Shown in pieces: positions 18,721 to 30,703 of a DNA stretch of 64,000 nt (position 1 is its first letter; each line of letters begins with the position of its first letter). The DNA is from a virus: the IMG/VR virus record IMGVR_UViG_3300042562_002450, positions 1 to 64,000 of that record. The stretch is one strand, 5' to 3'. The notes beneath the pieces were generated by a model that was not told the origin of the DNA, did not search any database, and saw only the letters and a program-made list of their open reading frames with translations. A program made the position numbers and the translations under genes.

Positions 18721-20316
18721 ATGAGTAAATTAATTGAAATAAAAGATACAAGATCTGTAATACTTAAACCTGTTAAAGAAATGGAAGAGATTGTCTGTTC
18801 AACTATGGGACCACATGGTCAAAACGTAATGCTTCGTAATGAAGCAGATTCTCCTGTGATTACTAAAGATGGTGTTACTGTTGCAAAGTCTGTAAATTCA
18901 GATGATGCATTTGAACAATTGATCTTTGACATATTAAAGCAAGCTGCTGAAAGAACAAACAGTGAAGCTGGAGATGGGACTACAACTGCAACTTCTATTG
19001 CAGCGAATACATTTAAAGAAGGTTTTAAACTTATATCTGCAGATGTTGATCCAATGTCCATTAAAAGAGAAATCGATCTCTTTTTAGAAACATATAAAGA
19101 TGAACTTAAAAAACATCGAGTAATATTTAAAGATAATAGTGACAAGGAAATTCAAGATACTTTATATAAGATAGCAATGATATCAACAAATGGTGATATT
19201 GAAATGTCTAAAGTTATCTCTGAAGCAACTGCTCGGGCTGGACTAAGTGGAATCATTAACATTAAACAAGCAACAGGTGACTATGGCATTACTCAAAGTA
19301 AAGGTGTTAAAATTCCTAATGCTGGTGTTGTTAACTATGATTTTGTTAAAGGCACAGTCGATAAAAAAGTCACTCTTAAAAATGTTTACGTCTTACTGAC
19401 AACTTATGAGCTTGAAAATCCAAGCTTACTAACTGATCTTAAACCAACATTTGAACATATTGGAAAGAATGGATCACTCCTTATTATTTCAAAGAAAGTA
19501 GACAAGGGCTTTTTAGCTCACTTATTGCAATGGAATGCAACTGGTCAACTTAAGAATGCTGCTGTTAGAGCTCCATATTTTGGTGCTGTTGGTAGGGAAA
19601 TGATGGACGATCTAGCCGCCTATCTTGGAACTGTTGTTATTGAGGAAGATAAGAAGCATTCTTTTGCTAAGCTTGAAGCCAATATGCTTGGGCGTGTAGA
19701 AGAAGCTGATGTGACTCCACACTATACAATTTTACGTGGTGTAAATCCAGACAAGGTGCGATTAGCTCAAAGAATTAAACTTCTTGAAGATAAGCTAGAA
19801 ACAATTAAAGATAAACAAAGTGACCCAGATAAAACCCTAGAAAGACTATCGTTACTTAATGGTAAAGTATTTACTATATCTGTTCCTTCTATCTCAGAGA
19901 TTGAAGATAAAGAAAGAATGGATAGAATAGATGATGCTATCAATGCCTGCAAAGGTGCATTGAAGTATGGATATATTCCTGGTGGTGGTATTACACTAGC
20001 TCGTATAGGTAGAGATAGTAAATCTTCTCTTATTCAAAAAATCTTAACAAGTCCATTAAGTAAGATATTAAGCAATGCAGGAAAATCAGAGCATCAAGCT
20101 ATTTGTCTTCTTGAAGATGAACAAGATGTATCTACTTCTTACGACTTAAGAAATGGTATTGAAGGTGATGCGTTAGAGATTGGAGTAATTGATCCTTATA
20201 AAGTAGCTGAGTGTGCAGTAATTAATGGCTTATCTGTTGGCTCAATGTTGCTAACTACAAAAGCAATTATATTGCCAAAACAAACAAAAGAAACCGCATT
20301 CGATATGTCTTACTAA
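18721..20316 (+). CDS. groEL: Chaperonin GroEL
   Basis: TMGPHG, ITKDGVTVAK, AGDGTTTA, IPGGG, GVIDP. Confidence 0.95.
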   Translation: MSKLIEIKDTRSVILKPVKEMEEIVCSTMGPHGQNVMLRNEADSPVITKDGVTVAKSVNSDDAFEQLIFDILKQAAERTNSEAGDGTTTATSIAANTFKEGFKLISADVDPMSIKREIDLFLETYKDELKKHRVIFKDNSDKEIQDTLYKIAMISTNGDIEMSKVISEATARAGLSGIINIKQATGDYGITQSKGVKIPNAGVVNYDFVKGTVDKKVTLKNVYVLLTTYELENPSLLTDLKPTFEHIGKNGSLLIISKKVDKGFLAHLLQWNATGQLKNAAVRAPYFGAVGREMMDDLAAYLGTVVIEEDKKHSFAKLEANMLGRVEEADVTPHYTILRGVNPDKVRLAQRIKLLEDKLETIKDKQSDPDKTLERLSLLNGKVFTISVPSISEIEDKERMDRIDDAINACKGALKYGYIPGGGITLARIGRDSKSSLIQKILTSPLSKILSNAGKSEHQAICLLEDEQDVSTSYDLRNGIEGDALEIGVIDPYKVAECAVINGLSVGSMLLTTKAIILPKQTKETAFDMSY

Positions 20317-21173: not shown

Positions 21174-21530
21174 ATGTCTGAAAATGTTAAACAGAAAAAA
21201 GTAGTAAAAAAAACTGTACAAGTCGGTGGGCAAAAAGTGCCTATGTACATTTGTCCTCCAGGAATGTCTGGTCTAGGTTTAGATCTAGAAAAGCATTTTA
21301 ATCAAGAAGACAAAGAAGAAGCTATCTTCGAAGTTATTGATAACTCACAAGCAGCAGAACTTGTACTTACAGAGGATTATGCTTTTGTAAGAGCTTATCA
21401 AAAATATTGCGATGATGGTGAAGTCGACAATGCAATGGTTGAGGACTTTGTTAATTATAAACAAATAAACAAGTACTATGACCCTGAAAGTGATTTAAAC
21501 AAAGATTTGGTATCAATATTCAATAACTAA
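21174..21530 (+). CDS. Hypothetical protein
   Basis: GGAG RBS; 118 aa. Confidence 0.65.
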   Translation: MSENVKQKKVVKKTVQVGGQKVPMYICPPGMSGLGLDLEKHFNQEDKEEAIFEVIDNSQAAELVLTEDYAFVRAYQKYCDDGEVDNAMVEDFVNYKQINKYYDPESDLNKDLVSIFNN

Positions 21531-21570: not shown

Positions 21571-21921
21571 ATGTCAACGCTCAAAACTGGAATGGTTTAT
21601 CAACGTACTCTTAAGGGACCAAATTATCTTTGTCTCGGTAAGGCTAGTGTCAATGGTAAGACCATGGTTATTTCTGTAAAAAACGGAAATATTAATGCAA
21701 ATGGTAAGTCACGCACGTTATCAAAAGCTGATGGTGGTGTAGTTATATTTGCTCACATGCCTGAAGACATTGCTCGCGTTCATCAAATTCGTAAAGTAGA
21801 TGTTGGATCTGTCTTTACAAAAGGTGCTGCAAGTACTGCTATTCAAACAACACTTAAACGTCTACTAACTCAAGGTATTGAAACAGCTGGGGAGCTGCCA
21901 TCTCTCGCAGAGCTTCGATAG
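21571..21921 (+). CDS. Hypothetical protein
   Basis: AAGGAG RBS; 116 aa. Confidence 0.7.
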   Translation: MSTLKTGMVYQRTLKGPNYLCLGKASVNGKTMVISVKNGNINANGKSRTLSKADGGVVIFAHMPEDIARVHQIRKVDVGSVFTKGAASTAIQTTLKRLLTQGIETAGELPSLAELR

Positions 21922-21955
21922 TCAAACAAACAAACACTCTAACGAGGAGAAAAAC

Positions 21956-22135
21956 ATGTCTCAAAAAAGAATTATTTTCGGTGAAACATCAGTACCTGTA
22001 CCTGATGCTGTAACTTCAGTAGAACAAGCTCGCGGATTCGCTGCTGCATTCCTTCCAGGTCTTTCAGATTCTGAAGGTTTCATCAATGAAGATGGCGATT
22101 ATGAATTTCGTAAAAAAGCTGGAACTAAAGGTTAA
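21956..22135 (+). CDS. Prokaryotic ubiquitin-like protein (PRTRC protein C / Prok_Ub-like)
   Basis: 59 aa ending YEFRKKAGTKG, the PRTRC-C type C-terminus; GAGGAG RBS. Confidence 0.8.
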   Translation: MSQKRIIFGETSVPVPDAVTSVEQARGFAAAFLPGLSDSEGFINEDGDYEFRKKAGTKG

Positions 22136-22152
22136 TCTTTAGGTCTGAATCC

Positions 22153-22175
22153 AAGGGGGCTTCGGCCCCCTTTTT
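22153..22175 (+). terminator. Rho-independent terminator after the Ubl gene
   Basis: AAGGGGGC-TTCG-GCCCCCTT plus TTT. Confidence 0.85.
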
Positions 22176-22187
22176 AAAAGGCCATAT

Positions 22188-22475
22188 ATGTTAAAGATAG
22201 AAAGACTTGAAAATCATAAGAACTTAGAATCAGTTCTTGAATCAAAAAAAAAGATATTTAATTTAATGGTAAAAGTGAATGGTTCAATGAATACATTTCA
22301 CAAAGAAATTAAAACACTAAGAGAAATCGAAGTGCTTGCCGAAGATTACTTTATTTCAAAAGAAGAAATAAAAGCATTAAAAGAAAAATCTTTTGGCCTA
22401 AATGAATCGTCAGTAATCGAAAAATTAAAAAATATAAAAAATAGTAAAATAGCTGTCTCAATAGACTTTATTTAA
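22188..22475 (+). CDS. Hypothetical protein in Ubl cassette
   Basis: 95 aa, Lys/Glu-rich. Confidence 0.6.
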   Translation: MLKIERLENHKNLESVLESKKKIFNLMVKVNGSMNTFHKEIKTLREIEVLAEDYFISKEEIKALKEKSFGLNESSVIEKLKNIKNSKIAVSIDFI

Positions 22476-22486
22476 AAGGTAAATAT

Positions 22487-23410
22487 ATGGATCAGTTAGT
22501 TATAGAAACAGATATACAAAGAGCTCCTAGTTTTATTAATAGCTCAGAAAATATATTTTTTGATTTAGACTATAGTTATCTCCTTAACTTTTGGTATACA
22601 TCTAAAGTAAATAAAGAAAATAATTATATAAAAAGAAATGGATTACATCCATATTTTCTGTTCAATGAAAACTTAAATTCAAACTCATTTATTACTTCTA
22701 ATGCAGAGGGTAACAGTGTTAATTTGAAAACAGTTTTTTACACTGTATTTAAAATATTCCTTGAGAATGTATTTAAAGATTTTAAAATAAGTAAAACAAG
22801 AGATGTTGAAGAATGGAAACTTTTATTTCCAGCAGATAAGAATGGTTTAGACTCTGAGCAATATCTTAAGTTTAGTTATTGTGAGCATCGTGAACTTAAT
22901 CTATATCCATTAATGCTACAAAGCATAAGGCCAAGATATGGTGTCACTCACCTTCCATCATTTAAAGTTCTTTTAAATAAAAAAGACATTTTACAATCTA
23001 AAGAAATATTTAATTGTTTTAATCAAATAGATGAGGAAGTATCTTCTACTATTGATGAAGGCTTAAAAAGTGTTCTTAATTCTTTACTTGAGCAAATGAT
23101 TTACAGAGATATATTTAAAGTTCCACAAACTTTGATAGCTGAAACAGTTCAGGCGGAAATGGATGCCGACATGGATGATAATGAAGATACAGAAGAATAC
23201 CTCGAGATAGTTGAAGAAAGGGTTCATCGTCTTCTTCCTGTTTGGTCAGCGATTCAAGCAAATGTCCCAGCAATGATTGCAGGGCGGGCTCGTTTTAGCT
23301 TTCTTCTTGCTTATGCTAAAGCGCAACAACCTTCTTTGTTTGATAATATTCAAGACTCAGATGAGAACTATGACGGTATCTCTAGACTAATAAATAATTT
23401 TGCCGCATAG
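22487..23410 (+). CDS. Hypothetical protein in Ubl cassette
   Basis: 307 aa; no motif recognised. Confidence 0.7.
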   Translation: MDQLVIETDIQRAPSFINSSENIFFDLDYSYLLNFWYTSKVNKENNYIKRNGLHPYFLFNENLNSNSFITSNAEGNSVNLKTVFYTVFKIFLENVFKDFKISKTRDVEEWKLLFPADKNGLDSEQYLKFSYCEHRELNLYPLMLQSIRPRYGVTHLPSFKVLLNKKDILQSKEIFNCFNQIDEEVSSTIDEGLKSVLNSLLEQMIYRDIFKVPQTLIAETVQAEMDADMDDNEDTEEYLEIVEERVHRLLPVWSAIQANVPAMIAGRARFSFLLAYAKAQQPSLFDNIQDSDENYDGISRLINNFAA

Positions 23411-23419
23411 GAGGATCTT

Positions 23420-24223
23420 ATGATTAATATTAAAGTTTTAAAAGACTTTGCAGAAGTTAGCTATCAGATCTCAGGATCACAAAAAAAAGAGACAAAGATA
23501 GTAGGTCTTTCCGAAATTCCATTGCTTTTTGATACAAAGATTTCTTTTGATTCTGGTATCTTACCTCTTTTTGGTAATGAGAATGCTTTGGGTATTCAAA
23601 GATTGGTACAGCGAGATAATTACTATTATGTTTTGGTTCAAGGTATTAATCCTTTTCTTAACACAAGACATGTTGCAGGTAATGTTTTTACAGATAAAGA
23701 TTTGAAAAATTTTAAACTGAATCATATTGAGAATACTGATCTTTTGATATCCAAGAAGGGTGATGTGTATGAATATAAGAATGTTTATTATCCAAATCTA
23801 TTAATGTCTTTGATGCTTAAAAAAGAAACAAAGGGCAGTCTTAAAATTGAAAAATCAGGAATACTTGCTTATTCAGATCATTTCATTTCAGAAGATACTC
23901 AACTTTATGAATTTCCATTTTCAAATACACATTCTGGTTCTGTTTATGGACAGATTTGTTGGGGTGGACAAGGGGCTCCACAGCTTGGATCTTTAGCTCA
24001 AAGTGTTGCTATAATGCAAAGTTTCTTAGGTTCAACAATGAATCATGACCTTTACAAGAAGGCATATGTTAATGGACATGCATTAGAAACCTCTTCTGAC
24101 TTACTGACATATTTGTCTTTAAAATCATCAGAGCTTAGTGCATTTCCTTACAAAGATATAGAGATGAAAAAGATAATTAAATACAATGACTTGATGTCTT
24201 ACCTTAATCAAAATTGGAAATAA
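23420..24223 (+). CDS. Prokaryotic E2-like protein (PRTRC protein B / Prok-E2 family D-like)
   Basis: LYEFPFSN...GQICWG with putative catalytic Cys; gene context. Confidence 0.75.
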   Translation: MINIKVLKDFAEVSYQISGSQKKETKIVGLSEIPLLFDTKISFDSGILPLFGNENALGIQRLVQRDNYYYVLVQGINPFLNTRHVAGNVFTDKDLKNFKLNHIENTDLLISKKGDVYEYKNVYYPNLLMSLMLKKETKGSLKIEKSGILAYSDHFISEDTQLYEFPFSNTHSGSVYGQICWGGQGAPQLGSLAQSVAIMQSFLGSTMNHDLYKKAYVNGHALETSSDLLTYLSLKSSELSAFPYKDIEMKKIIKYNDLMSYLNQNWK

Positions 24224-24225
24224 AA

Positions 24226-25557
24226 ATGAGACTACCAAATCCTAAACATTTATCAGAAAATGTACAAGAAAAGCATTTAAATGGTCAGCAAGAAATGTCA
24301 TTACTTGAAAGAGTAAACAAAATAAGAAAACCAGAAACTGCTGTAGTTTCAGTTCAGGATCAGATGAATTTCTGGAACTATCTTAATGATATTCAATATG
24401 GCGCACTTAATAAAGACTTACTAACTAAAGCAAATACTTGGTTGTTAACTAAGGATTCAACATTCCTTATTCAAAAAAATAATACTGGATTCTATGCTGT
24501 TAAGAAAAGTGATGCAGGAATTCCAACATTACCTAAAATCGATTATCCAGATGCCTTCTTTGAATTAGCATATGGTCAAATTCCAAATTCTATTTTAGAA
24601 CAAATCATTGGCTTTTTTAGAGAGATCATGAAGCGTCATAATGATGCAGAAGCTTTCATTCAAGTTTATTGGGATAAGCAAGATAGTCAATATATTGTAA
24701 ACATTCCTAAACAAAGAATCTCAAAAGCATCAGTTAATTATGATGCAACAGAGAACTTAAATTTGAAAGATCCTGCAAGATATTTATTTGCCTATGAGTG
24801 TCATAGTCATAATTCTATGAAAGCTTTTTGGTCAGGTACGGATAATGCAGATGAAAAAGAACTAAGAGTCTATGGTGTGTTCGGTGAGTTAGATAAAGAT
24901 AACTATGCTTCAAAGCATCGCTTCTTTGTTGGAGAAGAGCAAATTGATTGTAACATAAAAGCTATTTTTGATATGCCTAAAGAAGAAGAGAAAAAGTATG
25001 TAGTCACTCATAAGAATAAACAATATTTTGTTTCTGGAAATAAACTACAGCTTGATGAAACTCCTAAGTATATCCTTGAAACAGAAGCAGGCGAAAAGCA
25101 CTATGTTCCATTGGATGGTGTTGTGCTTCATCGTAATGAGGTTGCCTTTCCTGAAACATGGTTTGCTAATATCAATGTTCCTCTTCCAGCTCAAACTCGT
25201 GAAAGATCAAATAACATATCTACTGTCTGGGATCTTGACTTTCCATCATATGGAAAAAAAGATAAAAAGAACGGTCCAAAAGATTTCTTTAATAAAGATC
25301 TTGTTAATCCTTTTTATAGTAGAGACTTTGATACTTTTGATGCTGAGTGGGATTACACTATGGAGCTTGAGCAAATGTCTGAAGAGATTGATGCGATTCT
25401 TGATAGAACAAATGGATTTGAAGATGAAGCATCTACACAGATGTTCCTTGAAAATCTTGAGTTTAAATCTTCTCTAAAAGAACTAGAACTCGCTATTCAT
25501 AATTATCATGTCACTGCCCGTGAAGCAGAGAAGGGGCCATCTGATGGAAGATACTAA
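24226..25557 (+). CDS. JAB/MPN metallo-isopeptidase (PRTRC protein A-like) with long C-terminal extension
   Basis: AEAF...ECHSHNSMKAFWSGTDNADE JAMM motif. Confidence 0.85.
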   Translation: MRLPNPKHLSENVQEKHLNGQQEMSLLERVNKIRKPETAVVSVQDQMNFWNYLNDIQYGALNKDLLTKANTWLLTKDSTFLIQKNNTGFYAVKKSDAGIPTLPKIDYPDAFFELAYGQIPNSILEQIIGFFREIMKRHNDAEAFIQVYWDKQDSQYIVNIPKQRISKASVNYDATENLNLKDPARYLFAYECHSHNSMKAFWSGTDNADEKELRVYGVFGELDKDNYASKHRFFVGEEQIDCNIKAIFDMPKEEEKKYVVTHKNKQYFVSGNKLQLDETPKYILETEAGEKHYVPLDGVVLHRNEVAFPETWFANINVPLPAQTRERSNNISTVWDLDFPSYGKKDKKNGPKDFFNKDLVNPFYSRDFDTFDAEWDYTMELEQMSEEIDAILDRTNGFEDEASTQMFLENLEFKSSLKELELAIHNYHVTAREAEKGPSDGRY

Positions 25558-26449
25558 TCTAGATATTCTTGCTAAGTTATTGCCAGTAGATAAAAAGTTA
25601 TTTGATAAATTAAATAACAAACAGAATAAATTTCAGTCTGTTCTTAATCTGCCATTAACTAGAATAGCTGAAGTTGATACTTACCATTCTAATGTAGATT
25701 TAAATGCCACTCCTATCCAGATCAATATAATTGGTGCTGGAGGGACTGGTGGTTATCTAGTTAGGGATCTTTCTCGTTTTATTTATTCAATAGAAAAAAG
25801 AACAAGTAAGTCTAATATCTCAATTACAATCTTTGATGGTGATAATGTTGAAGAGAAGAATATCTTAAGACAGAATTTTCTTCCTCATGATATTGGCCAA
25901 AACAAAGCTGAAGTATTAGCTCTCCGTCATGTGCGAGCCTTTGGAACAAATATTAACTATGTCCCCGAAATGTTTGAATCAGTTCATACTAGTTCACAGA
26001 AATGGCGTGGATTTAATAATAGCGAAAAAGGTACAATCATCTATGTAGGCTGTGTTGACAATAATGCAGCTCGTAGAGAAATCGCAAAGACAATGGAAAA
26101 CTTCAGGACAGAGAATTGGGGAAGACAATCTCAAGAAATTTGGTGGATCGATTCAGGGAATGAAAGGAAAACTGGACAAGTAATAGCTGGCTCAAATTAC
26201 CTGATGGATGTTACTGACTTTTATCCTGAGATATTACTTCCTGAGTATGATTCTAAAGAAGTTATTAGTTGTGCAGATCGCATGATGGAAGATGAACAAA
26301 ACATGTTTGTTAACCTTACAGCATCTAATCTTATTCTTAATTATTTAAGAAAAATAATTTTAAATGAGCCTATGATCACTAACGGATCTGTCTTTAATAT
26401 CGACAATAAAGTAGACAACTATTACATTTTAAAAGATAACAAAGGTTAA
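25544..26449 (+). CDS. ThiF/E1-like activating enzyme (PRTRC type)
   Basis: IIGAGGTGG, DGDNVEEKNILRQNF, NKAEVLA, CVDN, WIDSGN, C-terminal SCA. Confidence 0.9.
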   Translation: MEDTNLDILAKLLPVDKKLFDKLNNKQNKFQSVLNLPLTRIAEVDTYHSNVDLNATPIQINIIGAGGTGGYLVRDLSRFIYSIEKRTSKSNISITIFDGDNVEEKNILRQNFLPHDIGQNKAEVLALRHVRAFGTNINYVPEMFESVHTSSQKWRGFNNSEKGTIIYVGCVDNNAARREIAKTMENFRTENWGRQSQEIWWIDSGNERKTGQVIAGSNYLMDVTDFYPEILLPEYDSKEVISCADRMMEDEQNMFVNLTASNLILNYLRKIILNEPMITNGSVFNIDNKVDNYYILKDNKG

Positions 26450-26455
26450 GGGTAT

Positions 26456-26788
26456 ATGATCAGAGGACAAAAAGTATTAGCAGCAAATTTGAAAAAGACT
26501 TTTCTTAAAACTGAAATAAATAGTGCAATATCTATAGTTTCAAAAGACAACAAGACTTTTGCAATAAACATAGCTTCTAATCAAGTTGAAAGATCCGATG
26601 GTCTTATCCCTAATTCAGTAATCTTAACTGAGAAACCTATAGAAAACTTTAAAGTAATTTGTAGAGTTTTAACTGAGAATGTAATGTCTACAAGTGTCTT
26701 TGATGGTAACTGCAGAATTATAGCAAATTCAAGAATAGATAAGCTAAAGAGCTATGCAATCCTTAAGGAATTAAAAGATTGCATATAA
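26456..26788 (+). CDS. Hypothetical protein between E1 and RT
   Basis: 110 aa; 6 nt after the E1 stop and 3 nt before the RT start. Confidence 0.65.
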   Translation: MIRGQKVLAANLKKTFLKTEINSAISIVSKDNKTFAINIASNQVERSDGLIPNSVILTEKPIENFKVICRVLTENVMSTSVFDGNCRIIANSRIDKLKSYAILKELKDCI

Positions 26789-26791
26789 GGA

Positions 26792-27643
26792 ATGTCCATG
26801 AAAACTTTCAAAACAATCAATGGGATAAGCTATCATTACATGAAATTTTTCCAAATTAAAAAGAATGGCAAGAAACGCGAAATCAACTCCCCTTGTGACG
26901 CATTAAAAGCCAAACAGAATAATCTTAAAGTTCTTCTAGAACAAGAGATCGATTCCGTACTTCCTCCTTATGTTGTTGGGTTTCGTAAATCCTATAACTT
27001 AAAAAAGAATGGAGATAGTCATTTGGGAAAAAAATGGGTTATAAACCTAGATGTAAAAGATTTTTTTCCAAGTATCAATAAAAAGATACTAGAAAAAGAA
27101 ATGATTGTTTTTAAAGATCTCTTAGAGAAGAATGGATATCTCTTTAGTGACTTTCTTGAATACGTTATTTTAAATAGGGCAATTCCGCAAGGAAGTCCAA
27201 TCAGCCCATTGCTTTCAAATTATATTGGTTACATCAGAATAGATCAAAAGGTTTATCCCTATCTATTAGAAAAATATGGAACAGAGCTATCTTATACAAG
27301 ATATGCAGATGACATAACATTATCTTTTAATTCTTTTTTAAAAAGAGAAGAAGTAATAGAAATGGTAAATGAAGTAATAAAAATAGTTGAAAGTGATGGG
27401 CTCTTTAAAATCAATCCAAAGAAAATCCAAATCATGCATAACTCTCAAAAACAAGTTGTGACTGGTGTGGTAGTTAATCAAAAGACATCATTAGGTAAAA
27501 AAGAAAAATTAAGATATCGGGCGATTGCACACAAACTTAAAAATAAGCAAATCGATATGACAGATGTCCTGCAAGGGAAATTGGCATATATCAATTCAAT
27601 TGATCCCGAATATTATCAAAAACTTAAAAGGAGTTTTTTATGA
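26792..27643 (+). CDS. Retron-type reverse transcriptase
   Basis: KREI..P, NGDSH (region X NAxxH variant), DVKDFFPSI, PQGSPISP, YTRYADD, VVTGVVVN (region Y VTG). Confidence 0.9.
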   Translation: MSMKTFKTINGISYHYMKFFQIKKNGKKREINSPCDALKAKQNNLKVLLEQEIDSVLPPYVVGFRKSYNLKKNGDSHLGKKWVINLDVKDFFPSINKKILEKEMIVFKDLLEKNGYLFSDFLEYVILNRAIPQGSPISPLLSNYIGYIRIDQKVYPYLLEKYGTELSYTRYADDITLSFNSFLKREEVIEMVNEVIKIVESDGLFKINPKKIQIMHNSQKQVVTGVVVNQKTSLGKKEKLRYRAIAHKLKNKQIDMTDVLQGKLAYINSIDPEYYQKLKRSFL

Positions 27644-27981
27644 AAGTTACAGAACTAAAAGTCTATCCAGTAAAAACAGCAGCTGGAAAAGTAAAAGCCA
27701 ATGGCGTTGTCACATTTGAAGAAGCTGTAGATCTTAAGTTCATCGTTATGGCAGGTCCAAAGGGTGACTTTATTTCTTGGGCTGGTGGTAAGGCTTATAA
27801 AAAGAAAGATGGGACTAATGGTTGGGATTCTCCAATTTTCATTAAAGACAAATCTCTTAATGATGATCTTACAGGACAAATCCTAGCAAAATTAAAGGCT
27901 TACTCTTCTGGCAATAACAATAATGCATCAATAGGTCAAACTAATGACGCATCGTTTGCTTCAGATGATATTCCGTTCTAA
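27640..27981 (+). CDS. SpoVG-like nucleic-acid-binding protein with SSB-type acidic tail
   Basis: MKVTELKVY..KVKANGVVTFE..GPKGDFISW SpoVG pattern; ends DDIPF; ATGA overlap with RT. Confidence 0.7.
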   Translation: MKVTELKVYPVKTAAGKVKANGVVTFEEAVDLKFIVMAGPKGDFISWAGGKAYKKKDGTNGWDSPIFIKDKSLNDDLTGQILAKLKAYSSGNNNNASIGQTNDASFASDDIPF

Positions 27982-27985
27982 ATAA

Positions 27986-28147
27986 AAAAATGTGGGGATA
28001 CAGTCGCATTGAATCATATAAGCCGACTTGCTGGGTATCTTAAATGTTAAGCTGAATATGCCCACTTTTAAATAAAACAATAGCTTAAAGCTCCACTTTG
28101 AAACTTAATACTTACTTTATGTTTCAGTGGGGCTAAGTTCTTGTTTT
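27986..28147 (+). ncRNA. Candidate structured RNA downstream of the RT operon
   Basis: Multi-stem domain (GTGGG/CCCAC, GATAC/GTATC, AGTCG/CGACT) plus a 74-nt imperfect hairpin. Confidence 0.5.
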
Positions 28148-28237
28148 TACTATGAAAAGTCTTAAATTAGATAATTGAATTATTTCAGGTTTATCTGTAT
28201 ATTAGTTGTAGAACTATATACACAAGTAAGGTTTCTT

Positions 28238-28831
28238 ATGACAGTACATAAAGGAATCACTTCTCAAAAACGAGCAGATAAGATATCAAAAATCTTAAAG
28301 TATGCTAATCAGATATTGAATATCGAAGTTGAGTTTGTTGATCAAAAAAAATTAGGATCGGATGCCGGTGGCTATGTTGCGCCTAAAGGTCAATGTAAAG
28401 GTAAGATAACAATATCAAACGAATACAATGGTCTTACTACAATATTAATTTTATTACATGAGATAGGACATCATATTGATTTCCTTAAACGTGGATATGT
28501 TGAAGATGAAGATGCAGCTTATCAATACTATCCTGATGTAAGAAATACTTATTGTCCATTAAAGCATAGAAGACTAATTAGAAGTGTAGAAAATTATGCA
28601 ATCAAATATGCATATGAGCTTTCTATTTTTCTAGATTTAAAACTTCCAGCTTTAGCATATTTAAAAGATGAAATTTATACAAAATCATCCTTAGAGCTTA
28701 TCTTTAAAAATGGACCATTGAATAAAGATGAGATGCGTAAATTAAAAAAGAAATCAAAAAAACAAGCTCGCTTATTGCTTCGAACAGAATATGGTAATAA
28801 AAAAATACTACCTTTAATTAAAAAAAGTTAG
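28238..28831 (+). CDS. HExxH metallopeptidase-like protein (ImmA/IrrE-like)
   Basis: ILLHEIGH; downstream Glu in SVENYA. Confidence 0.6.
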   Translation: MTVHKGITSQKRADKISKILKYANQILNIEVEFVDQKKLGSDAGGYVAPKGQCKGKITISNEYNGLTTILILLHEIGHHIDFLKRGYVEDEDAAYQYYPDVRNTYCPLKHRRLIRSVENYAIKYAYELSIFLDLKLPALAYLKDEIYTKSSLELIFKNGPLNKDEMRKLKKKSKKQARLLLRTEYGNKKILPLIKKS

Positions 28832-28910: not shown

Positions 28911-29225
28911 ATGATAGAAAAATATTATATTTATTTTTTTCCAGAAAGAGATAAAGAAAATCCTGCAATCAAAATTGGTTACAGTAAACATCCACAAAAA
29001 AGAATTAAACAATTACAGACTGGTCATCCAACTAAGATTGGATGTGAAGGTTGGATAGAAGTTGATAGTGAAGATAGTGCTCAAAAACTTGAAGCTAAGT
29101 ATCATGCAACTTTCATTAAAGAAAGAATTAGAAAAAATGGTGAATGGTTTAGATATACAGAAAACATAAAAGTATTCTTAGATCAATTAAGAACACATCC
29201 AAAATTTACAAGATATTATCATTGA
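28911..29225 (+). CDS. T5orf172/GIY-YIG-like nuclease domain protein
   Basis: IKIGYS..PQKRIKQLQTG...EAKYH...GEWF. Confidence 0.8.
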   Translation: MIEKYYIYFFPERDKENPAIKIGYSKHPQKRIKQLQTGHPTKIGCEGWIEVDSEDSAQKLEAKYHATFIKERIRKNGEWFRYTENIKVFLDQLRTHPKFTRYYH

Positions 29226-29250: not shown

Positions 29251-29319
29251 AATAGAACGCAAACGCAATGTTTGTTAACTATTTTTAGGGCAAAATTATC
29301 AGCCCGCTATGGAGTTTTA

Positions 29320-29784
29320 ATGTCTACAGTTAAGTATCCCGAGTCTGTTTCTTTTTACAAAAAATCAGCTGAATTACAAGTCAAATTGAAAAAACCAGAG
29401 ACAGATGCCGATGGAAGAATCATTAAAGGCAAAGAAGGCTGTATGTTTTTCGAAGCAGCAAGAGCAATTCCTGGTGATCCAGATGGTCGAATTGATTGGC
29501 CAAGTAAAATCATTATGAAAATTGGCGTTAATGACATTGGGCAATTAGTTGCTTTTTTGTCAGGAAGAGCTGATTCTTGTAAGTTGTTTCACAAAAATGC
29601 ATCAGGTGCATCCTCAACTCTTGAGCTATCAGCTGGAGAGAAAGGTTCAGTCGGAGTTCGTATCGGGAAAAAGCTAGGTGAAAATCAGCAAGTTAGTTCG
29701 GCTCAACTATATTTAAGTGGTCCTGATTCTATCATTTTAGAAGAACTATTAAAAGCATCACTTCCAATCGTACTAGGATACTAA
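29320..29784 (+). CDS. Whirly/PC4-fold ssDNA-binding protein candidate
   Basis: FYKKSAELQV, KEGCMFFE, RIDW..K, DIGQL, SCKLFH parallel plant Whirly motifs (from recall). Confidence 0.6.
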   Translation: MSTVKYPESVSFYKKSAELQVKLKKPETDADGRIIKGKEGCMFFEAARAIPGDPDGRIDWPSKIIMKIGVNDIGQLVAFLSGRADSCKLFHKNASGASSTLELSAGEKGSVGVRIGKKLGENQQVSSAQLYLSGPDSIILEELLKASLPIVLGY

Positions 29785-29950: not shown

Positions 29951-30703
29951 ATGAAATACAATTTGAATTACTGGATGAGTCCAAAAAAGCAACAGAATGT
30001 AAATCCTCGTATTCATGAATATGAAGAAGAGAAAGAATCAGCTCCAATGATTGCTTCATTAAGTCAGAACACACATCCAATTTTCTCAAGAGCAATTCTT
30101 TTTGATCAAGAGATTAATGAAATGACTTCAACTGCATTAAGAGCAGAAGTCCTAGCTAAAAGTGCAGAAGACCCATCGGCTCCTATCTATTTATTCTTGG
30201 GATCTCCAGGTGGTGGACTTTACGAATCATTAGCTATCTATGATACGTTCCAATTGATTTCAAATCCTATCATTGCTATCTGCTCAGGCAAGGTTATGTC
30301 GGGTGGTATCTTGATTCTACTTGGTTGTGATATTCGATTATCAACACCAAATAATACTTTCATGATTCACCATGGTCACACAATGCTTAGTGGAAATGTT
30401 GTTCAATTAAAAGAACAGCATAATGAGATTGAATCTTTAAATGATCGTATGCTTGATATCATTATTAAGAAAACTGATATTAGCCGTGAGCAATTAAAGA
30501 CTTGGTTGGTTAAAGATCATTACATGAATCCTGAAGCTGCTTTAAAATATGGATTGATTCATCATCAGATCAGTTCTCTAGATGAAATCATCATTGAAAA
30601 AGAACCAATTCCTGTAGATGCTATTCTAGATAGCGCTGTTCAAAAGCCAAAGAAAAAAGCAGCTAAGAAGATTTCAAAAAAGAAAGTAACAAAGAAAAAA
30701 TAA
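29951..30703 (+). CDS. clpP: ClpP-like protease with Lys-rich tail
   Basis: LGSPGG, AIYD, VMSGG (Ser), FMIHH (His), EAALKYGLI. Confidence 0.9.
   Translation: MKYNLNYWMSPKKQQNVNPRIHEYEEEKESAPMIASLSQNTHPIFSRAILFDQEINEMTSTALRAEVLAKSAEDPSAPIYLFLGSPGGGLYESLAIYDTFQLISNPIIAICSGKVMSGGILILLGCDIRLSTPNNTFMIHHGHTMLSGNVVQLKEQHNEIESLNDRMLDIIIKKTDISREQLKTWLVKDHYMNPEAALKYGLIHHQISSLDEIIIEKEPIPVDAILDSAVQKPKKKAAKKISKKKVTKKK

What the first reader, a model, noticed from the sequence alone, without database searches (positions are those of the whole stretch)
21956..26449. Complete PRTRC-like Ubl/E1/E2/JAB cassette in a lytic-type phage, without ParB
Seen: a 59-aa Ubl ending in Gly, with a strong RBS and its own UUCG terminator (suggesting Ubl excess); E2 with ICWG Cys; JAB with an intact HxH..S..D motif and about 200 extra aa; E1 with GxGGxG and a C-terminal SC. 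No ParB gene lies in the window. Known: bacterial Ubl conjugation (Bil systems) modifies phage proteins to block virion assembly. Inference: here the phage carries the writer and eraser, possibly to tag host proteins or to counter host Ubl defence via the JAB.
Basis: partly seen in the sequence, partly recalled or inferred. Interest (0 to 1): 0.78.

Follow-up and report, generated by a model that had tools for sequence, protein, structure and literature searches.

The report
Phage ubiquitin-like tagging cassette, PRTRC-type
A 199-kb lytic-type lake phage carries a complete, catalytically intact kit for attaching a small ubiquitin-like protein to other proteins; it is a diverged, ParB-less relative of the never-tested plasmid "PRTRC" cassette, and I found no experimental test of what such a kit does in a phage.

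Summary
Window 21956-26449 encodes six co-oriented genes:
- a 59-aa ubiquitin-like protein (Ubl) ending GTKG
- a 95-aa protein with a conserved acidic/aromatic C-terminal tip
- a fast-evolving 307-aa protein
- a Prok-E2_D E2 with an invariant Cys
- a JAMM/JAB peptidase
- a ThiF-type E1

The Ubl models as a beta-grasp. In relatives it occurs as head-to-tail poly-Ubl precursors or with short C-terminal caps, which points to JAB processing and conjugation rather than sulfur transfer.

The whole 198.6-kb record has no ParB and no tyrosine integrase. The gene order matches the annotated PRTRC of Ralstonia phage Dina, which is operon type 6d of Iyer et al. 2006. However, every component scores below the PRTRC family cut-offs or not at all.

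The cassette recurs in many large phages, including cultured Bacillus, Salmonella and Vibrio phages. In this clade it is packed with a retron-type reverse transcriptase and an SSB-tailed protein, and a Whirly ssDNA-binding gene lies 1.3 kb further on.

The target and biological role are unknown.

This scan has already noted the same cassette in at least 17 other genomes, and the RT pairing in at least 15.

I class it as a new variant of a known, untested kind.

The parts
21944..21949 (+). Shine-Dalgarno GAGGAG, 6 nt before the Ubl start codon
   Evidence: Read directly from the sequence.
21956..22135 (+). Ubl: 59 aa, beta-grasp, ending GTKG. A distant relative of PRTRC protein C.
   Evidence: In alignment A3 (26 sequences) the terminal Gly is invariant and K58, G56, F51 and P34 are at least 90% conserved. 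The AF2 model has pLDDT 87.7 and a beta-beta-alpha-beta-beta layout. Nearly all of the top 50 structure matches are ubiquitin-like folds, at Z up to 5.0. 5 of 26 family members weakly hit TIGR03738.
22153..22172 (+). G+C-rich hairpin with a UUCG loop, followed by a U run: a terminator or attenuator, or an RNA-stabilising hairpin, after the Ubl gene
   Evidence: Folds at -23.7 kcal/mol, z -3.3. L051 has a different hairpin at the same position.
22188..22475 (+). p95: small partner protein whose only widely conserved feature is a C-terminal acidic-[F/Y]-[I/V] tip (here IDFI). It is the positional counterpart of PRTRC protein E.
   Evidence: 23 positional analogues, including Bacillus phage WH1 gp212, end in this tip. 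Dina's PRTRC_E ends LDLPI. No family hit.
22487..23410 (+). p307: fast-evolving partner protein in the position of PRTRC protein F
   Evidence: Only 17 representatives among 1.8 billion proteins. N34, F35, W36, K40, K43, R50, G52, P55, F96 and K103 are invariant. The AF2 model has pLDDT 76, with an alpha/beta N-terminal domain and a winged-helix-like C-terminal domain that gives only weak matches. No profile link to analogues elsewhere.
23420..24223 (+). E2-like enzyme (Prok-E2_D) with catalytic Cys180
   Evidence: Pfam PF14460 at 25.3 bits; TIGR03737 at 20.1 bits. N169 and C180 are invariant in 56 of 56 relatives, and the N208-x-D210 motif is conserved.
24214..25557 (+). JAB/JAMM metallopeptidase with N- and C-terminal extensions
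   Evidence: TIGR03735 at 46.9 bits. Complete E...HxH...S..D motif. Shared C-terminal motif around W316.
25508..26449 (+). E1-like adenylating enzyme (ThiF fold) with conserved Cys255. The true start is probably Met13, at 25544.
   Evidence: TIGR03736 at 135.9 bits and PF00899 at 45.1 bits. Conserved residues. A 99%-identical database protein is 301 aa long.
26456..26788 (+). p110: unknown protein between E1 and RT, in the same tightly packed gene block
   Evidence: 49.5% identical homologue at the same place in L051. No family hit.
26792..27643 (+). Retron-type reverse transcriptase (YADD present), packed directly after the cassette
   Evidence: retron_St85_RT at 175.5 bits (cut-off 235) and RVT_1 at 81 bits. 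PADLOC retron RT models at up to 183 bits. An RT sits at +3/+4 genes from E2 in 8 of 28 non-redundant loci.
27640..27981 (+). p113: small protein ending DDIPF, like the C-terminal tip of bacterial SSB. Its start overlaps the RT stop.
   Evidence: Homologues in L051, L017 and L053 end DDIPF, DDLPF and GDLPF.

Best explanation
This is a working phage-encoded ubiquitin-like conjugation and deconjugation system of the 6d/PRTRC lineage.

Inferred steps, by analogy with E1/E2 chemistry:
1. The E1 adenylates the C-terminal Gly59 of the 59-aa Ubl.
2. The E1 takes the Ubl as a thioester on Cys255.
3. The E1 passes it to Cys180 of the E2.
4. The E2 attaches it to lysines of one or a few target proteins.
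5. The JAMM peptidase exposes the terminal Gly where the Ubl is made with a cap or as a poly-Ubl precursor, and removes the Ubl from targets.
6. The two fast-evolving partners, p95 (with its acidic-aromatic C-terminal tip) and p307, most likely act as adaptors or specificity factors.

The genes lie among early and middle DNA-metabolism genes. They are packed with a retron-type reverse transcriptase and an SSB-tailed protein, and a Whirly ssDNA-binding gene lies 1.3 kb downstream of that block. The target is therefore more likely a nucleic-acid-handling protein, of the phage or the host, than a virion part.

Shown: the parts, their catalytic residues, the fold of the Ubl, and the conservation of the module.
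Inferred: every chemical step, and the target.
For: - All catalytic residues are intact and conserved across 56-100 relatives.
- The Ubl is a beta-grasp with an invariant terminal Gly.
- Relatives encode the Ubl as 2, 4 or 5 head-to-tail copies, each ending GTKG, or with 1-23-residue caps. This makes sense only if the JAB trims them to a free Gly for activation.
- The six-gene order is kept in 28 non-redundant loci, and the genes overlap or abut.
- There is one copy of each part in the genome.
- The E1 profile is as close to the NEDD8, UFM1 and ubiquitin E1s as to ThiF.
- The proteins numbered Gp246-Gp249 in the published proteome table of Salmonella phage Arash were detected by mass spectrometry. 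If that numbering follows the GenBank locus tags, they are the E1, JAB, E2 and a 60-aa protein, so such cassettes would be expressed.
- An RT follows the cassette in 8 of 28 non-redundant loci and a Whirly gene in 5 of 28.
Against: - There is no biochemical evidence for any member of this operon type; I found no functional paper on PRTRC.
- E2, JAB and Ubl score far below the family cut-offs.
- No E3-like or target protein can be named.
- p95 and p307 have no recognisable fold or family.
- The link to nucleic-acid metabolism rests on gene neighbourhood only, and 20 of 28 non-redundant loci lack the RT.
- The poly-Ubl of Bacillus phage WH1 is annotated 'virion structural protein', which would point to a virion role instead.
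Confidence: 0.7

Rival explanations
1. Counter-defence. The JAB strips host Bil-type Ubl from phage proteins, or the kit tags and disables a host immune protein, so the cassette is mainly an anti-defence module.
For: - Every bacterial Ubl conjugation system tested so far is an anti-phage defence, according to the abstracts of PMC10557695 and PMC11601603 (listed).
- The cassette lies in an early-type region.
- The two accessory proteins evolve very fast, as arms-race genes tend to.
Against: - The JAB is closest to PRTRC_A and matches no PADLOC defence profile.
- A bare eraser would not need its own Ubl, E1 and E2, yet all are kept, together with poly-Ubl precursors.
- No host or host defence system is known for this phage.
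Confidence: 0.15
2. Virion or assembly role. The Ubl is attached to the phage's own structural proteins, or the kit is packaged and injected.
For: - The penta-Ubl gene gp211 of Bacillus phage vB_BceM_WH1 is annotated 'virion structural protein'.
- In the GenBank record of Salmonella phage Arash, the E1 and E2 genes are annotated 'structural protein'. The published proteome table lists Gp246-Gp249 as detected in particle preparations.
Against: - The Arash 'structural proteome' lists 116 proteins, including RNA polymerase and ribonucleotide reductases, so it is not specific for virion parts.
- The basis of the WH1 annotation is unknown; no paper was found.
- In this phage the cassette lies among replication-type genes, far from the tail and head genes.
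Confidence: 0.1
3. Sulfur-carrier chemistry. The Ubl is thiocarboxylated by the E1, like ThiS or MoaD, to make a thio-cofactor or a modified nucleoside, with no protein conjugation.
For: The E1 has the ThiF fold and weakly hits ThiF models. The Ubl model also resembles MoaD, at Z 4.2-4.3.
Against: - The E2 with an invariant Cys, the JAMM peptidase and the poly-Ubl precursors have no role in sulfur transfer.
- None of the neighbouring genes I scanned matched a sulfurtransferase or a ThiG/MoaE-like partner.
- ThiF equivalog scores are 22-26 bits against cut-offs of 159-275.
Confidence: 0.05

Closest known systems
PRTRC cassette (ParB-Related, ThiF-Related Cassette; NCBIfam TIGR03734-03742), for example as annotated in Ralstonia phage Dina gp02-gp07
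   Same: The order of functions is the same: Ubl (C), large unknown protein (F), E2 (B), JAB (A), ThiF-type E1. The best NCBIfam hits of E1, JAB and E2 are the PRTRC models. The Ubl tail resembles that of Dina's protein C (GTKG against GRKG), and 5 of 26 phage Ubls hit TIGR03738.
   Different: - No ParB anywhere in the record.
- All scores are below the curated cut-offs (135.9/144.75, 46.9/101.8, 20.1/131.45).
- The small tail-motif protein follows the Ubl instead of preceding it.
- p307 shows no similarity to PRTRC_F.
- The JAB is 447 aa, against a 192-position profile.
- The carrier is a large virulent-type phage.
- An RT follows the cassette.
Operon type 6d of Iyer, Burroughs and Aravind 2006 (PMC1779556, Table 1)
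   Same: [quoted passage not shown]
   Different: - The 'absolutely conserved histidine' after the E2 Cys is N-x-D in 53 of 56 phage-type E2s. The window has N-H-D and L051 has N-T-H.
- The extra protein models as alpha/beta plus a helical domain, not all-alpha.
- The paper lists bacteria only.
Bil (BilABCD) and CBASS Cap2/Cap3 bacterial Ubl-type defence systems
   Same: E1, E2 and JAB chemistry acting on a Ubl or a Ubl-like C-terminus. The Ubl model weakly resembles the Ubl of a solved bacterial E1-E2-Ubl complex (8tyz_B, Z 4.0).
   Different: No PADLOC profile matches the Ubl, E2 or JAB, and the E1 gives only 15-21-bit hits to CBASS E1-E2 fusions. Here the system is encoded by the phage, not the host.
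Eukaryotic polyubiquitin genes
   Same: Relatives of this Ubl are encoded as 2-5 head-to-tail units, each with the same Gly-ending tail and often a short C-terminal cap.
   Different: This window has a single uncapped unit. The tail is KG rather than GG, and there is no sequence similarity to ubiquitin.

Membership tests
PRTRC system (NCBIfam) | ThiF-family E1 reaching the TIGR03736 cut-off | tested here: not met
   135.9 bits against a cut-off of 144.75. It is the best family by far, but below the threshold.
PRTRC system (NCBIfam) | PRTRC protein A (JAB) reaching the TIGR03735 cut-off | tested here: not met
   46.9 bits against 101.8.
PRTRC system (NCBIfam) | PRTRC protein B (E2) reaching the TIGR03737 cut-off | tested here: not met
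   20.1 bits against 131.45.
PRTRC system (NCBIfam) | PRTRC protein C (Ubl), TIGR03738 | tested here: inconclusive
   The window's Ubl gives no hit. 5 of 26 aligned relatives hit weakly, best E 0.0015. My Ubl profile finds Dina's protein C at E 2e-4.
PRTRC system (NCBIfam) | PRTRC proteins E and F | tested here: not met
   p95 and p307 hit no NCBIfam model at E<=0.1. hhalign of the p307 profile against Dina's protein F gives probability 0.08%. Only the position, and a hydrophobic C-terminal tip for E, are shared.
PRTRC system (NCBIfam) | Linked ParB-family protein (TIGR03734) | tested here: not met
   No TIGR03734 and no ParB_N match in the 198,626-bp record, which is 89% complete.
Operon type 6d (Iyer et al. 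2006) | Ubl with a conserved C-terminal Gly, plus JAB, E1-like and E2-like genes in one operon | tested here: met
Operon type 6d (Iyer et al. 2006) | E2 lacks the classical His but has an absolutely conserved His after the Cys | tested here: inconclusive
   The classical His is absent (F165-P-F-S-N169). The downstream conserved motif is N-x-D in 53 of 56 relatives and has His in 3 of 56. The window has His209 next to D210.
Operon type 6d (Iyer et al. 2006) | JAB with an N-terminal alpha+beta domain bearing a conserved Arg and Trp | tested here: inconclusive
   An N-terminal extension exists, but no Arg or Trp reaches 50% conservation before the core. The conserved Trp (W316, 63 of 86) lies after the core.
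Bil / CBASS type II defence systems | Match to BilA-D or Cap2/Cap3 profiles | tested here: not met
   PADLOC gives no hit for the Ubl, E2 or JAB. The E1 gives 15-21 bits to the E1-E2 fusion models.
ThiS/MoaD-ThiF/MoeB sulfur-carrier pairs | E1 reaching the ThiF or MoeB equivalog cut-offs, with a sulfur-acceptor partner nearby | tested here: not met
   21.8-26.2 bits against cut-offs of 159-275. None of the neighbouring genes scanned matched a ThiG/MoaE or sulfurtransferase family.
Retron (for the adjacent RT) | RT reaching a retron family cut-off, plus an msr/msd RNA | tested here: inconclusive
   The best model, retron_St85_RT, gives 175.5 bits against a cut-off of 235. No Rfam RNA was found. 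A conserved 77-nt element lies downstream, but only two sequences are available.

The most novel reading that the evidence does not exclude
The Ubl kit and the retron-type reverse transcriptase, together with the SSB-tailed protein and the Whirly ssDNA-binding protein, form one functional unit. Ubl tagging would control or be directed by an RT-made nucleic acid, or by the proteins that bind it. Examples would be marking a host or phage ssDNA-handling protein during early infection, as a new kind of phage take-over or anti-defence device.
Probability: 0.22. Interest if true: 0.85.

Novelty: new variant of a known kind. Interest (0 to 1): 0.66.

Why it matters
Ubiquitin-like conjugation in bacteria has been demonstrated only for host defence systems (CBASS Cap2/Cap3, Bil). 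The 6d/PRTRC operon type was predicted in 2006 and, as far as I could find, has never been tested.

Here the same chemistry is carried by large virulent-type phages. It is conserved across deep phage lineages and sometimes has polyubiquitin-like precursors. That means viruses of bacteria, like those of eukaryotes, may use Ubl tagging for their own ends.

Cultured carriers exist (Bacillus phages vB_BceM_WH1, Edson and KLEB27-3; Salmonella phage Arash; Vibrio phages D69, D181 and D148), so the question can be tested directly.

One practical point: the Ubl tail is ...TKG. Trypsin would therefore leave a single Gly (+57.02 Da) on target lysines, which is easily mistaken for carbamidomethylation, so standard diGly proteomics would miss these conjugates.

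Tried and rejected
Searches for relatives and families
- Megablast of the cassette against 50,697 phage records found nothing.
- PHROGs has no family for any of the six proteins.
- PADLOC gives only weak E1 hits.
- A single-protein scan of viral contigs found nothing; the alignment-based scan worked.
The 53-62%-identical relatives on 180-195-kb contigs could therefore not be fetched, apart from L051, which came through the metagenome scan.

Accessory proteins
- p95-type small proteins show no alignable similarity apart from the C-terminal tip.
- The p307 profile, run through hhalign against 25 groups of positional analogues including Dina's PRTRC_F, gave probabilities of 3% or less.
- Foldseek on the p307 model found nothing at E<=0.001.
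- VIA-align gave only Z<=6 winged-helix matches, including cullin WHB domains, for residues 232-307. That is too weak to use.
- The protein atlas found nothing for p307 or for the JAB tail.

Solved structures and RNA
- PDB sequence searches found nothing for the JAB or for the E2 profile.
- Rfam has no retron RNA or other family near the RT.
- The conserved 77-nt element after p113 could not be found elsewhere.

Literature
- No functional paper on PRTRC.
- No paper on phage-encoded E1/E2/JAB kits.
- No paper on phage WH1.

Rejected idea
- The [F/Y][I/V] tip of p95 is unlikely to be a second E1 substrate, because E1-type enzymes take small Gly-ending tails. This is inference only.


Full report
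**What is in the sequence**

Window 21956-26449 holds six co-oriented, closely spaced ORFs:
- Ubl, 21956-22135, 59 aa
- p95, 22188-22475
- p307, 22487-23410
- E2, 23420-24223, 267 aa
- JAB, 24214-25557, 447 aa
- E1, 25508-26449, 313 aa; the real start is probably Met13, because a 99%-identical database protein is 301 aa long

The E2 and JAB ORFs overlap, as do the JAB and E1 ORFs. After E1 there are only 6 bases before p110 (26456-26788), then 3 bases before a reverse transcriptase (26792-27643). The RT stop overlaps the start of p113 (27640-27981).

The Ubl has GAGGAG 6 nt before its ATG. It is followed by an 8-bp G+C-rich hairpin with a UUCG loop and a short U run, at 22153-22172, folding at -23.7 kcal/mol with z -3.3. 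The closest relative has a different G+C hairpin at the same place, and two more distant relatives have none.

**The host genome**

The window is the first 64 kb of a 198,626-bp virus record judged 89% complete.
- Almost all genes are on one strand, and there are six tRNA genes.
- The large genes are a phage-type DNA polymerase, primase-helicase, ligase, UvsX-like recombinase, ribonucleotide reductase, GroEL and a ClpP-like protease.
- The record has no PRTRC ParB, no ParB_N domain and no tyrosine integrase.
- Each cassette part occurs once in the genome.

**The Ubl**

An iterated profile search of the fetched loci recovered a family of 53-66-residue units that nearly all end in G-T-K-G. In the 26-sequence alignment A3 the last Gly is invariant, and K58, G56, F51 and P34 are at least 90% conserved.

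The AlphaFold2 model has pLDDT 87.7 and a beta-beta-alpha-beta-beta layout with a free tail. Foldseek gave nothing significant for so small a domain. In the exhaustive structure comparison, though, nearly all of the top 50 chains are ubiquitin-like beta-grasp proteins: Raf RBD Z 5.0, Fubi 4.8, ISG15 4.7, MoaD 4.2-4.3, SUMO 4.3, and the Ubl of a bacterial E1-E2-Ubl complex 4.0. The Z values are modest, as expected at 59 residues, but the enrichment is unambiguous.

The strongest argument for conjugation comes from relatives:
- The Ubl is encoded as two (L018), four (L019, L046/L049) or five (Bacillus phage vB_BceM_WH1 gp211) head-to-tail units, each ending GTKG.
- In other loci it occurs as two tandem genes (L055-L057).

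Such precursors need a peptidase that cuts exactly after the Gly, which is what the adjacent JAB is expected to do.

**The enzymes**

- E1. Its best family is PRTRC_ThiF, at 135.9 bits, just under the 144.75 cut-off. The nucleotide-binding GxGGxG, D110, R121, K133, D184 and the S254-C255 pair are conserved in 81-97 of 100 relatives. A profile of the family hits the NEDD8, UFM1 and UBA6 E1s (E 5e-8 to 5e-6) at least as well as ThiF (2e-5) and MccB (5e-4).
- E2. It passes the Pfam Prok-E2_D threshold narrowly, at 25.3 bits against 25. N169 and C180 are invariant in 56 of 56 relatives. The classical His before P-x-x-N is missing, and an N208-x-D210-L motif follows the Cys.
- JAB. It has the full JAMM signature: E146, H197-x-H199, S207 and D210. 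Its common core is about residues 61-255. Residues 256-300 are specific to this clade, and a motif around W316 is shared with most relatives.

No solved structure is related by sequence to the E2 or the JAB.

**Two further conserved partners**

In nearly every fetched locus where my Ubl profile found a Ubl, the stretch between Ubl and E2 holds a small protein (72-133 aa) and a larger one (180-585 aa). A few loci show only the larger one.

The small proteins cannot be aligned with one another. Even so, 23 of them, including WH1 gp212, end in an acidic stretch followed by [F/Y][I/V] at the very C-terminus. Examples are IDFI here and CNFI, EEDFV, DFFFI, VDYI and ESDFI elsewhere. Protein E of the canonical PRTRC in Ralstonia phage Dina ends LDLPI. 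I read this tip as a docking peptide; that is inference.

The larger protein evolves very fast:
- p307 has only 17 representatives among 1.8 billion proteins.
- It has ten invariant residues, mostly in an N-terminal NFW...K..K......R.G..P block.
- It shows no profile similarity to the positional analogues of other clades or to Dina's protein F.
- Its model (pLDDT 76) has an alpha/beta domain, an acidic disordered linker and a three-helix C-terminal domain. That last domain weakly resembles winged-helix domains at Z 6 or less, which is not enough to name a fold.

**Distribution**

E1 relatives at 53-62% identity sit on metagenomic contigs of up to 195 kb.

L051 keeps the whole region gene for gene: GroEL, p118, p116, Ubl, p95, p307, E2, JAB, E1, p110, RT, p113. 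L017 (a 188-kb viral contig) and L053/L054 keep GroEL, p116, Ubl, E2, JAB, E1, RT and p113.

Fifty IMG/VR contigs, many longer than 150 kb, carry more distant versions. After removing near-duplicates, 28 loci have E2-JAB-E1 in this order.

Cultured carriers include:
- Bacillus phages vB_BceM_WH1, Edson and KLEB27-3
- Salmonella phage Arash
- Vibrio phages D69, D181 and D148
- Ralstonia phage Dina, which is temperate-sized

Bacterial genomes hold only relatives at 39% identity or less. Most of these are in Clostridia and have a different arrangement, with JAB-E1 together and the E2 several kb away.

In an E1 tree, phage and bacterial versions interleave. The window groups with L051, L017 and L053, and the three of these with enough flanking sequence are all followed by an RT (midpoint-rooted FastTree, supports not examined).

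**Context with the reverse transcriptase**

The RT is retron-type: 175.5 bits to the St85 family against a cut-off of 235, PADLOC retron RT models at up to 183 bits, and YADD present. An RT follows the cassette in 8 of 28 non-redundant loci, spread over at least three E1 lineages. A Whirly ssDNA-binding protein (29272-29784 here, Pfam 29.8 bits) follows in 5 of 28.

p113 and its homologues end in DD[I/L]PF, like the tip of bacterial SSB. A 77-nt intergenic element right after p113 (27990-28066) is 89% identical to L051 over 53 nt, while its surroundings do not align. It may be an RNA linked to the RT, but two sequences allow no covariation test.

**Comparison with what is known**

The gene order is that of the PRTRC cassette as annotated in phage Dina: E, C, F, B, A, ThiF. 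PRTRC corresponds to operon type 6d of Iyer, Burroughs and Aravind 2006: a Ubl, JAB, E1-like, an E2-like protein without the classical His, and a rapidly diverging extra protein. I checked this in the paper's Table 1.

Formal membership in the NCBIfam PRTRC families fails for every component, and ParB is absent. So this works like a PRTRC/6d system but is a diverged, phage-adapted variant.

It is not a Bil or CBASS system and not a ThiS/MoaD sulfur-carrier pair. I found no experimental study of PRTRC/6d and no paper on phage-encoded E1/E2/JAB kits.

The Arash paper's proteome table lists Gp246-Gp249 as detected in particle preparations. If its numbering follows the GenBank locus tags, these are the E1, JAB, E2 and a 60-aa protein. 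The same list holds 116 proteins, including RNA polymerase and ribonucleotide reductases. At most it shows expression, not virion location.

**Verdict**

- The structural reading, a complete PRTRC-like Ubl/E1/E2/JAB cassette without ParB in a lytic-type phage, is supported, with the qualification that it falls outside the curated PRTRC families.
- The most likely mechanism is true Ubl conjugation with JAB-mediated processing and removal (confidence about 0.7).
- The target is unknown. Gene context favours nucleic-acid-handling proteins over virion parts.
- Counter-defence, a virion role and sulfur transfer remain as rivals, at about 0.15, 0.10 and 0.05.
- Earlier notes of this scan describe the same cassette in at least 17 other genomes and the RT pairing in at least 15. 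I reached the parts list independently. I took from those notes the pointer to row 6d, which I then verified.

Noticed in passing
window 27990-28066 (+): A 77-nt intergenic element just after p113 is 89% identical over 53 nt to L051:10460-10512, while the flanking spacer does not align. It is unique in the genome. The whole spacer 27975-28180 folds at -50.4 kcal/mol (z -4.3). There is no Rfam match. It is a candidate RNA partner of the adjacent reverse transcriptase.
   Followed up: partly
window 27640-27981 (+): p113 and its homologues in L051, L017 and L053 end in DD[I/L]PF, the signature of the bacterial SSB C-terminal tip. The gene start overlaps the RT stop. No Pfam family was found.
   Followed up: partly
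window 29272-29784 (+): A Whirly-family ssDNA-binding protein (Pfam 29.8 bits). Homologues lie 5-8 genes after the E2 in 5 of 28 non-redundant cassette loci.
   Followed up: partly
L131:1742-2668 (Bacillus phage vB_BceM_WH1 gp211): The gene annotated 'virion structural protein' is in fact five head-to-tail Ubl units, each ending QAGTKG, plus a 15-residue cap. It lies upstream of the phage's E2, JAB and E1.
   Followed up: partly
window 21571-21921 (+) and 21174-21530 (+): p116 is conserved directly upstream of the Ubl in L051, L017 and L053. p118 has homologues in L051 and L017. Both are of unknown function and may belong to the module in this clade.
   Followed up: no
window 28175-28831 (+): A 218-aa ORF with an HEIGH zinc-peptidase-like motif and no Pfam hit. 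It is followed by a T5orf172/GIY-YIG-type gene (28911-29225) and a ClpP-like protease (29951-30703).
   Followed up: no
window 18721-20316 (+): A phage-encoded GroEL-type chaperonin (PHROG 5725, 363 bits), kept upstream of the cassette in L051, L017 and L053.
   Followed up: no
L134-L213 (bacterial genomes, mostly Clostridia): The bacterial relatives have another layout: JAB-E1 together, with the E2 4-7 kb downstream. Two of their JAB proteins that I read end in the same kind of hydrophobic tip (AELPF, KDVYI) that the phage module carries on its separate small protein.
   Followed up: no
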